Shown here one piece after another: positions 18,001-21,000 of a stretch of 42,529 bases of DNA. The stretch comes from a virus (lineage: Duplodnaviria; Heunggongvirae; Uroviricota; Caudoviricetes). Where the stretch lies: the IMG/VR virus record IMGVR_UViG_2718218227_000014, one strand, 5' to 3'. How positions within the stretch are numbered: position 1 is the stretch's first letter; every line of letters starts with the position of its first letter. The position numbers were made by a program.

Positions 18001-21000
18001 GAACTCCCGGGCAAGCCGCATGACAAACTGCATTTCCCGCGTCAGGACTTTTCCGGCGTCAGCACCTCATGCTCCAAATCCCCGGCATTCTCAATGGCTC
18101 CCATACCGCTCAGCGACAGAACCATCTCCGCCCCCGCTCCCAGGGCATCATACGACCATGTTGTAATAACGGATGCGCAAAGCGTCTCAACATCCTGAGA
18201 CTGTTCCGCATTCCACAGTGAGCGGGAAACCAGCCAGGCATTGATATCCATCCCCATCCGCAGAAAAGCAATCTGTCGTTCAGCCTCCGGCAGTTCTCCC
18301 TCTTCGGCATCAAACTTTGCCGTTCGCTGCTGAACAAACGCCAGATATTCAATTCTCTGCAGCCCGGACAGCTCACTGAGCACCACGGACTGCTTTTCAT
18401 AATTAAACGTGCCCTGTTTCAGAAACATCATGTTCTCCACCTGCAAAAAAGCCCCGGATAACCGGGGCAAATGATGAGTATCGTCCTGTTAACCTGCAGC
18501 GCTGACAGTCACCGCAGCCACAGCCACAAAATTCCCGTCAGCGGTCATGCCCACAATGCTGACGCTGCCCTGCTTCACGCCTTTCACCGTGGCCACAAGT
18601 CCGTTCAGGGTCACAGTGGCTGTCTGTGGATCTGTCGAATGCACACTGATCGCTTTGTCACTGGCTCCGTCAGGTTTTACTGTAAAGGTCAGCGTGGTGG
18701 TTGCTCCCACATTGACACTGGCGGATGCCGGTGCCACCGTCAGCCCGGTAACGCCCACAGTTTCAGTGCCCTCCTCTGCCAGATATGGACGCCCCACACC
18801 GCTGATTTTCACTGTGCGGGTCATCACGTCTTTTGAGGCAATGGTTTTACCCAGTGAGCTCAGCCAGCCGCGGAAAACATCAACAGTGCCGTTGGGATAT
18901 TTGATACGAAACGCGCAGACTTCACCGGAGTCGAACAACTGAACCAGTTTTTTCTGCCCGCTGTCACCCGGACGCCAGGCCAGCGTCGCCGAAGTATCAC
19001 CAACGGATTTCTGCCCCTGGGTTGTCGTTTTCCAGTCTGCATCTTCATCATCGAGATAAGTGTCATCTTCTGCATCAGCGGTCATTTCGCCAGGTTGCAG
19101 ATCCTTCACCATCGCAAGACGCAGCCAGTCAGTGTCCGACAAAGGGTTCGCAAACGCATCGCCGTTGCCGGTATACATCCAGAACGTCGTCCCCGCACCT
19201 TTCGTCTTTGCCAGTGGATTTGGCGTGGTCATTACCACCTCCTTAATTCGTGTACGTGATCTGGTACGTGATTTCCGCCATCGCCCAGGTGGCCATCTCA
19301 TTATCACGTTGATAGTTAAAACCGAGTGGGATCAGGGTGTCGATGAGTCCGGAAAGTGCCGATACATCATTCAGGGCCGGGAAAATGGTGCTCTCCATCC
19401 ACATATCCAGCTCTGAATCCGGTGCCTGTGCCCGGATGAAGACAGCAATATGCAGAACAGCCTGCCAGTCATCTTCATCCGTCATTTTTCCGGTGTACTG
19501 AGCATCACTCAGCCACACCGCCACGGCAGGCAGTTCCTGCGCATCAACAAATGCCGGAAGCCCGTCAAAAAACGTGGCGCTGTCTCCACACTGTTCCCGA
19601 AGGCGTGCCAGTACGACCTGGCGGATTTGTGTATGTCGGTTCATCGGGTCAGCCATAACCTCAGTTGTTGTTTCAGTGCATACCCCAGCTGTTTCGGCAT
19701 TTCCGCAGCAATGATGCGGTCGCGGGCATCTTCAAATGCCTGTGTCAGCGGTCCGGACAGCGGGATTTTCACCACATCAATGGGGTAACGATTTTTGCCA
19801 TCAATACGCCGCATCACATGCCAGCGACCATTCGCCAGTTGCTGAATAAACGCATCCCGGAAAAGATATTTACCCACCTTCAGCACACTGCCACGGTACT
19901 GCAGTTTTCCACCACGCTGGGCCAGTCTGACCCGGGCTGTCCCCAGCTTAATGGCGGGCAGATTGCCCCGGTTAACGCGGATCCTGGCCGTCATTTTTCC
20001 TGACGGACTGGCTTTAAACACCCGGACACGCTGACGAACCAGTTTCAGGGGGATCCCTTTCACCTGGTTATCTCCCGCAACGGTATTCCCGGCAACCTGC
20101 CGGGTGGCAACCGAGCCCGCTTTCTGTGCCACACGGTTTATCGCCCATGCGCTGGCCTGTGGCACCATACGGGTATCAAGGCTGTTCAGATTGCGGATGG
20201 CATTCTCAAGCCCCTTCATCCCACACCTCTTTACTCAATAAAGATCATTGGCTTACCGTTAAAGCGTTCATGCCGTGTGACCGTCCATTGTTGTCCGTCA
20301 TAAACAACGCGATCCCCGCGCCGTGGGCGGTATCCCGAAGAAAACACCACCAGAGAGACCGCAGGTCCGGACAGAGCATTCAGCTCTGCCAGTGTTTCTC
20401 CCGGGATCACAGTCATATCGACATCATTAATCGAGGCTGTCTTTCCCATCTTTCTGACCGTGATAGCATCCATACGCGCTGCCAGCCGGGAAAAGGGATC
20501 AGACATTGAGTTTTACCGGCACTTCTTCTGCACTGGTTCCGGCATCTGCCCAGACAACCCCGACCAGCGGATCAGAGCCGCTGTTAGTCAGCTGAACTTT
20601 TCCTGACTTCAGATAAACCTTCTTACCCGTTTTCATGTCATCCGTTTTCAGCTTAGGCAGCATAAACACACCTTCGGTCATGCCGTCGCCTGTTTCACCC
20701 TGTGGAATATCGGTCAGCGCCACCGCAAAAACATCGCCCACCTGCACCAGATCTCCGCTGCTGATGGCTGCACTGGCAACAATCGCCACCGTTTTTCCTT
20801 CTTCTACAAAATTCTTTGCCATAACTGTCTCCGCACAGCCCCGTTCAGGGGCTGATTTCAGGTACAAAAAAAGCCCTTACGGGCCATCAGAGTTGTTGTC
20901 TGCGACGTTTACGCCGTACATTTCACCAGACCGCGGTGATCAACTGGCGCGACACCGGCGTCAATACGCACTTTCGTTGTCACGCCATCCACACTGAAGC

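What the first reader, a model, noticed from the sequence alone, without database searches (positions are those of the whole stretch)
20866..20886. Terminator-like hairpin directly after the capsid gene
GGCCCGUAAGGGC plus U7 on the late-transcript strand about 25 nt after the capsid stop, a second structure inside the late operon suggesting differential expression of capsid versus downstream genes.
Basis: seen in the sequence. Interest (0 to 1): 0.3.

Follow-up and report, generated by a model that had tools for sequence, protein, structure and literature searches.

The report
Known terminator hairpin after phage capsid gene
The hairpin is real, and evolution has kept a terminator-type signal at this spot after the capsid gene of a common E. 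coli prophage, but the same hairpin is already annotated in public phage records, its role is untested, and this copy sits in a dead prophage.

Summary
On the - strand, GGCCCGUAAGGGC (20885..20873) is followed by U7 (20872..20866), 23 nt after the stop of the ClpP-protease/scaffold/major-capsid fusion gene and 43 nt before the ATG of the decoration (cement) gene. It is not chance. Strict hairpin+T6 sites number 7 on this strand against 0.07 in shuffles. A terminator-like hairpin lies within 60 nt of the capsid stop in 65 of 73 non-redundant relatives (49-99% protein identity, several gammaproteobacterial orders), against 5% of control windows. Stem sequences are unrelated between clades.

In Enterobacterales the stem GCCC/GGGC and the T7 run are nearly invariant. 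A second hairpin with many compensatory changes abuts the decoration gene's ribosome-binding site.

The feature is already known. GenBank records of the near-identical phages mEp460 and Ayreon annotate this hairpin as a terminator, and the HK97 and P22 records mark equivalent stem-loops after their capsid genes.

Late transcription is Q-antiterminated, the tail genes lie downstream with no promoter detected between, and the next gene is a decoration/cement protein likely needed in capsid-like amounts. In this window (O157 prophage Sp3) an IS element splits the Q gene, so the element is an inert relic. Interest is low.

The parts
20909..22936 (-). ClpP-like prohead protease / scaffold / major capsid fusion gene. 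Stop TAA is at 20909-20911. The start is 22936 by the Sakai RefSeq annotation, or 22867 by the mEp460 annotation.
   Evidence: Pfam CLP_protease plus Phage_capsid_4. Annotation in the Sakai, mEp460 and Ayreon records. Source names.
20886..20908 (-). 23-nt untranslated spacer between the capsid stop and hairpin 1. Its sequence is not conserved among relatives.
   Evidence: This segment cannot be aligned between relatives with 65-75% protein identity.
20873..20885 (-). Hairpin 1, the finding itself: G-GCCC / GUAA / GGGC. It has 4 G-C pairs plus an optional G-U closing pair with U20872. Free energy is -8.3 kcal/mol.
   Evidence: Annotated as a rho-independent terminator in mEp460 and Ayreon. The stem is nearly invariant in 36 distinct Enterobacterales sequences while the loop varies.
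20866..20872 (-). U7 tract directly 3' of hairpin 1.
   Evidence: The T-run has exactly 7 T in 33 of 36 distinct Enterobacterales sequences.
20855..20865 (-). A/U-rich single-stranded spacer GUACCUGAAAU between the two hairpins. It is semi-conserved, with consensus AUAYCUGAAAU and one C and one A invariant.
   Evidence: Alignment A2.
20836..20854 (-). Hairpin 2: CAGCCCC / UGAAC / GGGGCUG, 7 bp, -13.2 kcal/mol, with no U tract. It ends 3 nt before the ribosome-binding site of the decoration gene.
   Evidence: Among 36 sequences there are 29 distinct stems, all 5-10 bp, with many compensatory changes and unconserved loops. The stem always ends 0-5 nt before GGAG.
20829..20832 (-). Shine-Dalgarno GGAG of the decoration gene.
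   Evidence: Conserved in alignment A2.
20499..20822 (-). Decoration/cement protein gene (DUF2190, Phage_cement_2), 107 aa.
   Evidence: Pfam. A homologue lies downstream of the motif in 118 of 118 viral contigs.
18451..18468 (-). Second terminator-type hairpin of the late operon, after the major tail tube gene V: GCCCCGG/UUAU/CCGGGGC plus U6, -15.0 kcal/mol.
   Evidence: Annotated in mEp460 and Ayreon. It is absent after V in most of the more distant relatives.
29600..29618 (-). tR'-type terminator at the head of the late operon (8-bp stem plus U8). It coincides with the 3' end of the Hfq-bound short RNA EcOnc13.
   Evidence: EcOnc13 coordinates come from the supplement of PMC4104026, converted with the Sakai alignment.
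30976..33063 (-). Q antiterminator gene, split by an IS3-family (IS629-like) element at 31280-32493. The N-terminal part is 32545-33063 and the C-terminal part is 30976-31314.
   Evidence: Pfam Phage_antiter_Q positions 1-139 and 137-216 fall on two separate ORFs. ALIL frameshift pseudoknot at 32096-32212.

Best explanation
It is a genuine Rho-independent-terminator-type element kept by selection: a short G+C stem, a tetraloop and U7. It sits in the only sizeable gap of the head-gene block, between the protease/scaffold/capsid fusion gene and the decoration gene, in the late operon of mEp460/cdtI-type lambdoid phages.

Shown: the structure, its exact placement, its conservation, and the replacement of its sequence while its position is kept.

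Inferred: RNA polymerase that has not been modified by the phage Q antiterminator stops here, at least partly. That covers spurious or read-in transcription in a lysogen or before Q acts. Q-modified polymerase coming from the late promoter reads through, which it must do because all connector and tail genes lie downstream. Transcripts that end here by termination, or by cleavage in the A/U-rich spacer followed by trimming, keep a 3' hairpin. That hairpin would protect the head-gene message.

In Enterobacterales a second hairpin with compensatory changes lies directly before the decoration gene's ribosome-binding site. It probably insulates or stabilises the downstream message.

In this window the element is a passive relic. 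The Sp3 prophage has an IS-split Q gene, a broken portal gene and an IS-split tape-measure gene.
For: Sequence and fold.

Not chance: 7 strict sites on the coding strand against 0.07 in shuffles.

Positional conservation: 65/73 non-redundant loci from Enterobacterales, Pasteurellaceae, Pseudomonas, Psychromonas, Photobacterium and others have a terminator-like hairpin within 60 nt of the capsid stop, against 5% of same-strand control windows. By my reading, four of the eight exceptions still show an imperfect hairpin followed by T-rich sequence.

Sequence turnover: stem sequences are unrelated between clades, for example GCCC/GGGC, ACCCCGC/GCGGGGT, GACCGCACTT/AAGTGCGGTT and AGCCTCTG/CAGGGGCT.

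Purifying selection within Enterobacterales: the stem and T7 are nearly invariant although the 3'UTR just upstream cannot be aligned and the loop varies.

Linkage to this junction: the motif occurs in viral contigs only between these two genes, 118 of 118.

Independent annotation: it is annotated as a rho-independent terminator in mEp460 and Ayreon.

Read-through is required: viable relatives carry a Q-type late regulator, have tail genes downstream, and have no annotated late-region promoter. No promoter-like site lies in the gap.

Analogues in model phages: equivalent stem-loops are annotated after the capsid genes of HK97 and P22, and one is visible in lambda.

Against: There is no experimental 3'-end or read-through measurement for this site or any homologue.

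The stem is short (4-5 bp, -8.3 kcal/mol). It is the weakest of the terminator-type hairpins compared, so termination efficiency may be low even for unmodified polymerase.

The Enterobacterales stem never varies, so there is no covariation within that clade. A DNA-level palindrome is therefore not formally excluded there.

Blocking spurious transcription does not by itself explain why the position directly after the capsid gene is so strictly kept. The terminator after tail gene V is not kept in most of the more distant relatives.
Confidence: 0.7

Rival explanations
1. Tuned partial terminator during lytic growth. A fraction of late transcripts stop here, so that the capsid is made in excess over the downstream connector and tail proteins, as T7 does with its leaky terminator after the capsid gene.
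For: It follows the most abundant structural gene, and a second terminator follows the major tail gene. There is an apparent trade-off between stem strength and U-tract quality across clades: weak stem with perfect U7 in Enterobacterales, 7-14-bp stems with broken U tracts elsewhere. That would fit tuning to an intermediate strength. Leaky terminators that balance expression are documented for T7 and LUZ7.
Against: Late transcription in these phages is Q-antiterminated. By established knowledge, Q-modified polymerase is resistant to intrinsic terminators, and every polymerase reaching this point from the late promoter has already passed tR'. The next gene is a decoration/cement protein, expected at capsid-like copy number (my own knowledge). 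The terminator after V is not conserved in most of the more distant relatives.
Confidence: 0.2
2. RNA processing and stability cassette rather than a terminator. The late transcript is cut in the A/U-rich stretch between the two hairpins (U7 plus AUAYCUGAAAU). Hairpin 1 then blocks 3' exonucleases on the head-gene fragment. Hairpin 2 becomes a protective 5' stem-loop and keeps the decoration gene's ribosome-binding site clear.
For: The two-hairpin architecture with a semi-conserved single-stranded A/U-rich spacer is kept across Enterobacterales. Hairpin 2 shows extensive compensatory change and always ends 0-5 nt before GGAG. This would work even with Q-modified polymerase. It would also explain high output of both the capsid and the decoration genes.
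Against: A strictly conserved U7 run directly after the stem is the hallmark of termination and is not needed for exonuclease protection. A 4-5-bp stem is a weak exonuclease block. More distant clades have only the terminator hairpin and no second hairpin. No cleavage data exist.
Confidence: 0.25
3. The terminator defines a small Hfq-binding regulatory RNA derived from the 3' end of the capsid mRNA. The window carries a CA-rich stretch, ACAACAAC, just upstream of the hairpin.
For: A hairpin plus a long U tail is the usual Hfq-binding 3' module. O157 prophages encode many such RNAs (PMC4104026).
Against: The Hfq cross-linking catalogue for Sakai lists only EcOnc13 and EcOnc32 in Sp3, both near the late promoter and none here. 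The 23 nt upstream, which would hold the seed, are not conserved among relatives. There is no Rfam match. The late genes of this prophage are probably silent, so the absence of cross-links is weak evidence.
Confidence: 0.05
4. A DNA-level element: a protein-binding palindrome or a conserved linker that promotes recombination between head-gene modules.
For: The Enterobacterales stem GCCC/GGGC is invariant, so there is no RNA covariation there. The DNA similarity to Fels-1 ends at the T-run, consistent with a mosaic boundary there.
Against: Other clades have unrelated stems but the same hairpin-plus-T architecture, always on the coding strand. Loops are unconserved. The T-run is polar, on one side only, as expected for a terminator and not for a palindromic binding site.
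Confidence: 0.05

Closest known systems
The same hairpin in phages mEp460 (JQ182728, feature 6334-6353) and Ayreon (MF807953, feature 6325-6359), annotated 'rho-independent terminator' / 'terminator'
   Same: The surrounding 1 kb is 99.3-99.7% identical. The position between the protease/capsid fusion gene and the DUF2190 gene is the same.
   Different: Those are viable phages with an intact late regulator. The window copy lies in the defective O157 prophage Sp3. The public annotations are predictions and not measurements.
Stem-loops after the major capsid gene in the late operons of HK97, P22/L and lambda
   Same: Each is a G+C-rich hairpin with a U-rich tail a few nucleotides after the capsid gene's stop, inside a single antiterminated late operon. 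HK97 annotates a 'putative terminator' at 5192-5213. P22 annotates a 'stem_loop ... similar in location to stem-loops in phage HK97 and phage lambda' at 6102-6119. Lambda has ATGGCCC-UUCG-GGGCCAU after E, and a hairpin plus U7 between D and E. The phage L paper discusses the same feature and says its role is not known.
   Different: The capsid genes and hairpin sequences are unrelated. Their stems are longer and stronger (-11 to -16 kcal/mol against -8.3) and their U tracts are poorer. None has the second hairpin that abuts the ribosome-binding site. In lambda the decoration gene precedes the capsid gene.
T7 terminator after capsid gene 10 (leaky terminator that raises capsid expression)
   Same: A terminator directly after the major capsid gene with essential genes downstream, so read-through is required. 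The position after gene 10 is my own knowledge. One search supports only that T7 uses inefficient terminators to balance expression.
   Different: T7 uses its own polymerase, which is partly sensitive to the terminator. Here the host polymerase is expected to be made terminator-resistant by Q, so the same quantitative logic may not apply.
tR' terminator / short late-promoter RNA of lambdoid phages (lambda 6S RNA, StxS, EcOnc13)
   Same: An intrinsic terminator in the same operon that is overridden by Q. An example lies in this window at 29600-29618.
   Different: tR' lies directly after the late promoter and is the regulatory switch. The capsid hairpin lies about 9 kb downstream and has no known switching role.

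Membership tests
Rho-independent (intrinsic) terminator | G+C-rich stem-loop (stem of at least 4-5 bp, loop 3-8 nt) | tested here: met
   4 G-C pairs plus a G-U pair, GUAA loop, -8.3 kcal/mol. This is at the short, weak end of the range.
Rho-independent (intrinsic) terminator | Run of U directly (0-2 nt) 3' of the stem | tested here: met
   U7 at 20872..20866. Exactly 7 T in 33/36 distinct Enterobacterales relatives.
Rho-independent (intrinsic) terminator | Lies on the transcribed strand in untranslated RNA, clear of the terminating ribosome | tested here: met
   23 nt after the stop and 43 nt before the next ATG, on the late-gene strand. The hairpin starts 17-30 nt after the stop in the Enterobacterales relatives. 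That a terminating ribosome covers roughly 12-15 nt downstream is my own knowledge.
Rho-independent (intrinsic) terminator | More frequent than chance, and conserved at the homologous position | tested here: met
   7 against 0.07 strict sites. 65/73 loci against 5% of controls.
Rho-independent (intrinsic) terminator | RNA 3' ends / polymerase release at the U tract | not testable with these tools
   Term-seq data for strain Sakai exist but cannot be read here.
Capsid-gene-distal stem-loop of lambdoid late operons (lambda, HK97, P22/L) | Hairpin with a U-rich tail immediately after the major capsid gene | tested here: met
   for the window. for the model phages.
Capsid-gene-distal stem-loop of lambdoid late operons (lambda, HK97, P22/L) | Lies inside a single late operon governed by a Q-type antiterminator, with essential genes downstream and no promoter detected between | tested here: met
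   Q gene (Pfam Phage_antiter_Q), tR'-type terminator, and lysis, terminase, head and tail genes all on one strand. No promoter-like site in the gap. The viable relative mEp460 has a late regulator. In this window Q is split by an IS element.
Hfq-dependent sRNA derived from a 3'UTR | Detected Hfq binding / discrete short RNA | tested here: inconclusive
   Not among the Sp3 entries returned from the Sakai Hfq-CRAC supplement, and searches for the flanking gene tags and coordinates found nothing. However, the late genes of this defective prophage are probably not transcribed.
Hfq-dependent sRNA derived from a 3'UTR | Conserved seed region upstream of the terminator | tested here: not met
   The roughly 20 nt upstream of the hairpin cannot be aligned among relatives.
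Dispersed repeated palindromes (REP/BIME-like) | Many copies at unrelated intergenic sites | tested here: not met
   The motif GCCC-N4-GGGC-T7-NTNNCTGAAA was found only between the capsid fusion gene and the DUF2190 gene, in 118/118 evaluable viral contigs. The median is one place per E. coli genome that has it.

The most novel reading that the evidence does not exclude
In Enterobacterales the gap between the capsid and decoration genes is a conserved two-hairpin punctuation cassette: weak terminator hairpin plus U7, a semi-conserved A/U-rich spacer, and a covarying hairpin abutting the ribosome-binding site. The late transcript, which Q makes immune to termination, would be cut between the hairpins into separately stabilised capsid and decoration messages. 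In that case terminator-like hairpins inside antiterminated phage operons would act mainly after transcription rather than by stopping polymerase.
Probability: 0.15. Interest if true: 0.4.

Novelty: already known. Interest (0 to 1): 0.15.

Why it matters
It matters little for this window. The copy sits in a dead prophage, and the hairpin is already annotated in near-identical phages.

More generally, terminator-like hairpins after major capsid genes recur in lambdoid late operons. [quoted passage not shown]

The comparative result here gives a well-defined, widespread test case. The position is kept across several bacterial orders while the sequence is replaced. In enteric relatives there is a tightly conserved weak stem plus U7 and a covarying second hairpin. 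The surrounding 181-nt region is present in 1860 of 5426 complete E. coli genomes. It could be used to ask whether such elements stop unmodified polymerase, tune expression, or stabilise message segments.

Tried and rejected
(1) Anti-sRNA (AgvB/AsxR-type) idea. It was prompted by the CA-rich ACAACAAC just before the hairpin. I rejected it because those RNAs map to the moron site 3' of the late promoter, no Hfq site is listed here, the upstream segment is not conserved, and Rfam gives nothing.

(2) A promoter hidden in the gap, which would make this a true operon end. The scan finds none. By my own reading, the candidate -10-like strings (TATACC, TGAAAT) lack key positions and have no conserved -35, and a start there would fall inside hairpin 2.

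(3) Alternative pairing between the two hairpins, as a riboswitch-like choice. It is possible in the window (GGGC with GCCC). It is not preserved in relatives whose second hairpin is CGGCUCC/GGAGCCG and similar.

(4) Sequence-specific protein binding to either hairpin. This is unlikely because the loops are unconserved.

(5) A search of viral contigs with the single protein returned only loci at least 99% identical, which are useless for covariation. I solved this with a profile search of species-representative genomes.

(6) RNAalifold on the MAFFT alignment recovered only the inner 3 pairs of hairpin 2, because the indels were out of register. I replaced it with per-sequence folding and counting from the loop outward. 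That count is fitted to each sequence's own fold, so 'all paired' is partly by construction. The diversity of stems and the shuffle z-scores are the informative part.

(7) The expectation that the terminator after tail gene V would be equally conserved was not borne out.

(8) Literature searches for measured termination at capsid-distal hairpins of lambdoid phages found none. The P22 genome paper could not be retrieved.
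Full report
WHAT IS THERE. The late genes of this window run on the - strand. Read on that strand, the stop codon of a 652-675-aa gene lies at 20911..20909. 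It is followed by 23 nt, then GGCCCGUAAGGGC (20885..20873: four G-C pairs, a GUAA loop, an optional closing G-U pair), and then seven U (20872..20866).

The upstream gene is a fusion of a ClpP-type prohead protease, a scaffold segment and a major capsid domain: Pfam CLP_protease plus Phage_capsid_4. NCBI names it 'ClpP-like prohead protease/major capsid protein fusion protein'.

After the U tract come four more features:
- an 11-nt A/U-rich spacer (20865..20855);
- a second hairpin, CAGCCCC/UGAAC/GGGGCUG (20854..20836, -13.2 kcal/mol), with no U tract;
- the ribosome-binding site GGAG (20832..20829);
- the ATG (20822) of a 107-aa DUF2190 / Phage_cement_2 decoration protein.

IS IT MORE THAN CHANCE? 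The hairpin alone folds at -8.3 kcal/mol, and both hairpins form in the minimum-energy fold of the gap. I applied a strict definition: at least 4 G-C pairs, loop 3-8, and at least 6 consecutive T within 1 nt. By that definition the - strand of the 42.5-kb window has seven sites, against a mean of 0.07 in 100 dinucleotide-preserving shuffles. The + strand has one. The seven lie after Q, at the tR' position, and after Rz, the capsid gene, tail tube gene V, tip protein J and Lom. All of these are gene or module ends.

WHERE THE WINDOW COMES FROM. The region is 100% identical to prophage Sp3 of E. coli O157:H7 Sakai, in reverse orientation. The 181-nt region around the hairpin occurs in 1860 of 5426 complete E. 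coli genomes.

The prophage is decayed in three ways:
- An IS3-family element (31280-32493) splits the Q antiterminator gene into 32545-33063 and 30976-31314.
- A second copy (14219-15432) splits the tape-measure gene.
- The portal gene is broken.

Sp3 was reported not to excise, replicate or be packaged (PMC2669165). So this copy regulates nothing today. The biology belongs to its viable relatives.

ALREADY ANNOTATED. Phages mEp460, Ayreon, cdtI, Tritos and others are 99.2-99.7% identical over the surrounding 1 kb. The mEp460 record annotates 6334-6353 as a 'rho-independent terminator', and the Ayreon record annotates 6325-6359 as 'terminator'. Both are this hairpin. Both records also annotate one after the major tail gene. 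mEp460 carries a Q-type late regulator, with no promoters annotated in the late region.

CONSERVATION. A single-protein search of viral contigs gave only near-identical loci. I therefore built a profile from 13 homologues and fetched 79 loci from species-representative genomes, at 49-99% protein identity. They cover Enterobacterales, Pasteurellaceae, Pseudomonas, Psychromonas, Photobacterium, Ferrimonas and Oceanisphaera.

Of 73 non-redundant loci, 65 have a terminator-like hairpin starting within 60 nt of the capsid stop. The rate is 5% for same-strand control windows in the upstream coding sequence and 8.5% for the opposite strand of those windows. By my reading of the sequences, four of the eight misses still show an imperfect hairpin followed by T-rich sequence.

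Stems are unrelated between clades:
- GCCC/GGGC in Enterobacterales;
- ACCCCGC/GCGGGGT in Pseudomonas;
- GACCGCACTT/AAGTGCGGTT in Haemophilus;
- AGCCTCTG/CAGGGGCT in Psychromonas;
- a 12-14-bp stem in Mannheimia and Rodentibacter.

The position and architecture are thus kept while the sequence is replaced. This is the strongest evidence here that the terminator-type structure itself is selected.

Within Enterobacterales I compared 36 distinct sequences. The four G-C pairs are nearly invariant and the T-run has exactly 7 T in 33 of them. The loop varies (GTAA, GTCA, GAAA, ATCA, TGAT, TTAA and others), and the roughly 20 nt between the stop and the hairpin cannot be aligned.

A pattern search for hairpin 1, T7 and the spacer in viral contigs returned 120 loci. 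In all 118 with enough flank, a capsid-fusion homologue (65-100% identity) lies upstream and a DUF2190 gene lies downstream. The element therefore belongs to this gene junction and is not a dispersed repeat.

By contrast, the terminator after tail gene V is absent after V in most of the more distant relatives.

THE SECOND HAIRPIN. In the same 36 sequences hairpin 2 has 29 distinct stems of 5-10 bp. The median free energy is -14.3 kcal/mol and the median z-score against shuffles is -3.65. Many changes are compensatory, for example CAGCCCC/GGGGCUG, CGGCUCC/GGAGCCG, CGCCCC/GGGGCG, CCGGCC/GGCCGG and UCCGGUG/CAUCGGA. Loops are unconserved, and the 3' end of the stem always lies 0-5 nt before GGAG.

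RNAalifold on the MAFFT alignment recovered only the inner pairs, because of register errors. My count is anchored on each sequence's own fold, which biases 'percent paired' upwards. The stem diversity is the informative part. More distant clades lack hairpin 2.

HOW IT PROBABLY WORKS. Everything structural says intrinsic terminator. But the operon is lambdoid. It has a Q gene, a tR'-type terminator (29618..29600), and lysis, terminase, head and tail genes on one strand. That terminator coincides with the Hfq-bound short RNA EcOnc13.

By established knowledge, summarised in PMC7547250, Q modifies RNA polymerase at the late promoter so that it passes terminators. Every polymerase that reaches the capsid gene from that promoter has already passed tR'. 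The connector and tail genes lie downstream, and the roughly 43 nt to the next ATG show no promoter-like site. Near-identical phages are viable, so the site must be read through.

The most economical reading has three parts:
- It stops, or partly stops, polymerase that is not Q-modified.
- Q-modified polymerase ignores it.
- Whatever 3' ends arise here carry a protective hairpin.

The genome paper on the P22-like phage L lists the same candidate roles (partial termination, or stopping spurious non-antiterminated transcription) for its terminator after the procapsid genes. [quoted passage not shown]

The first is Q resistance. The second is that the next gene is a decoration/cement protein, which I expect at capsid-like copy number (my own knowledge, by analogy with lambda gpD and gpE). 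The third is that the V terminator is not conserved.

A processing and stability model is attractive for the Enterobacterales architecture. In it, the transcript is cut in the U/A-rich spacer, hairpin 1 acts as a 3' block, and hairpin 2 acts as a 5' stabiliser and ribosome-site insulator. That model does not explain the strict U7.

One observation hints at tuning to an intermediate strength. Enterobacterales combine a weak stem with a perfect U7. Other clades combine 7-14-bp stems with interrupted U tracts. This is only a hint.

COMPARISON WITH WHAT IS KNOWN.
- The HK97 RefSeq record annotates a 'putative terminator' at 5192-5213, right after the major head gene. The sequence is GGGCGGG-GAAA-CCCGCCC plus UUUU. 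It annotates another after the major tail gene.
- In lambda I see ATGGCCC-UUCG-GGGCCAU plus UGUUUCU after E, and GCCGC-CUGU-GCGGC plus U7 between D and E.
- These hairpins fold at -11 to -16 kcal/mol against -8.3 here.
- T7's leaky terminator after capsid gene 10 is the classic functional analogue. Its position is my own knowledge; notes only that T7 uses inefficient terminators to balance expression. T7 uses a polymerase that is sensitive to the terminator.

VERDICT. It is a member of a long-recognised class, and this very hairpin is already annotated as a terminator in public records. Its function has never been measured. Novelty: already known. Interest: low. The modest added value is the breadth of positional conservation and the conserved two-hairpin layout in enteric relatives.

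Noticed in passing
window 4996-6209 (+), 14219-15432 (-), 31280-32493 (-): Three copies of an IS3-family (IS629-like) element, each with an ALIL frameshift pseudoknot (Rfam, 121.5 bits). One splits the Q antiterminator gene and one splits the tail tape-measure gene.
   Followed up: partly
window 22881-24462 (-): The lambda-family portal gene is broken into a 374-aa ORF (23338-24462) and a 120-aa ORF (22881-23243). The latter is annotated as a pseudogene in the Sakai record.
   Followed up: partly
window 29600-29658 (-) and about 29328-29416 (+): The strong terminator GGCUGCGC-AUG-GCGCGGCC plus U8 coincides with the 3' end of EcOnc13, an Hfq-bound short RNA reported in Sakai. It looks like the tR'-terminated late-promoter RNA, comparable to lambda 6S RNA and StxS. 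The convergent EcOnc32 maps just downstream on the other strand.
   Followed up: partly
window 18451-18468 (-): Terminator-type hairpin (7 G-C pairs plus U6, -15.0 kcal/mol) after major tail tube gene V. Unlike the capsid one, it is absent after V in most of the more distant relatives.
   Followed up: yes
window 33454-34413 (+): An LpxR-family outer-membrane protein gene on the opposite strand, upstream of the Q gene and downstream of the NinG and phosphatase genes. It is probably an accessory (moron) gene.
   Followed up: no
window 6837-6856, 7509-7526, 27815-27832, 30912-30927 (all -): Four further strict hairpin+T6 sites on the coding strand, at gene ends: after Lom, after tip protein J, after Rz, and after the Q gene. 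The first two are annotated as terminators in mEp460.
   Followed up: partly
L133, L140, L141, L146, L149, L156 (Pasteurellaceae), downstream of the capsid stop: These relatives have 200-500 nt between the capsid terminator and the decoration gene, apparently with an ORF. This suggests a moron insertion spot directly behind the terminator.
   Followed up: no
L142, L143, L144, first 130 nt after the capsid stop: Three relatives (Trabulsiella, Pectobacterium, Kluyvera) have no terminator there. They share an unrelated G+C-rich sequence ('...cctgccacggggcgg...') followed by catcatcatcat. Unexplained.
   Followed up: no
L163 (phage lambda) 2086-2135 and 3160-3200: Lambda has a hairpin plus U7 between decoration gene D and capsid gene E. 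The simple terminator scan missed it, probably because the stem can extend into the T-run. A second hairpin lies after E.
   Followed up: partly
Fels-1 (NC_010391) 22379-22913 against window 20866-21400: DNA similarity to Salmonella phage Fels-1 (81%) runs through the end of the capsid gene and the hairpin and stops at the T-run. This is consistent with a mosaic junction at the terminator.
   Followed up: no
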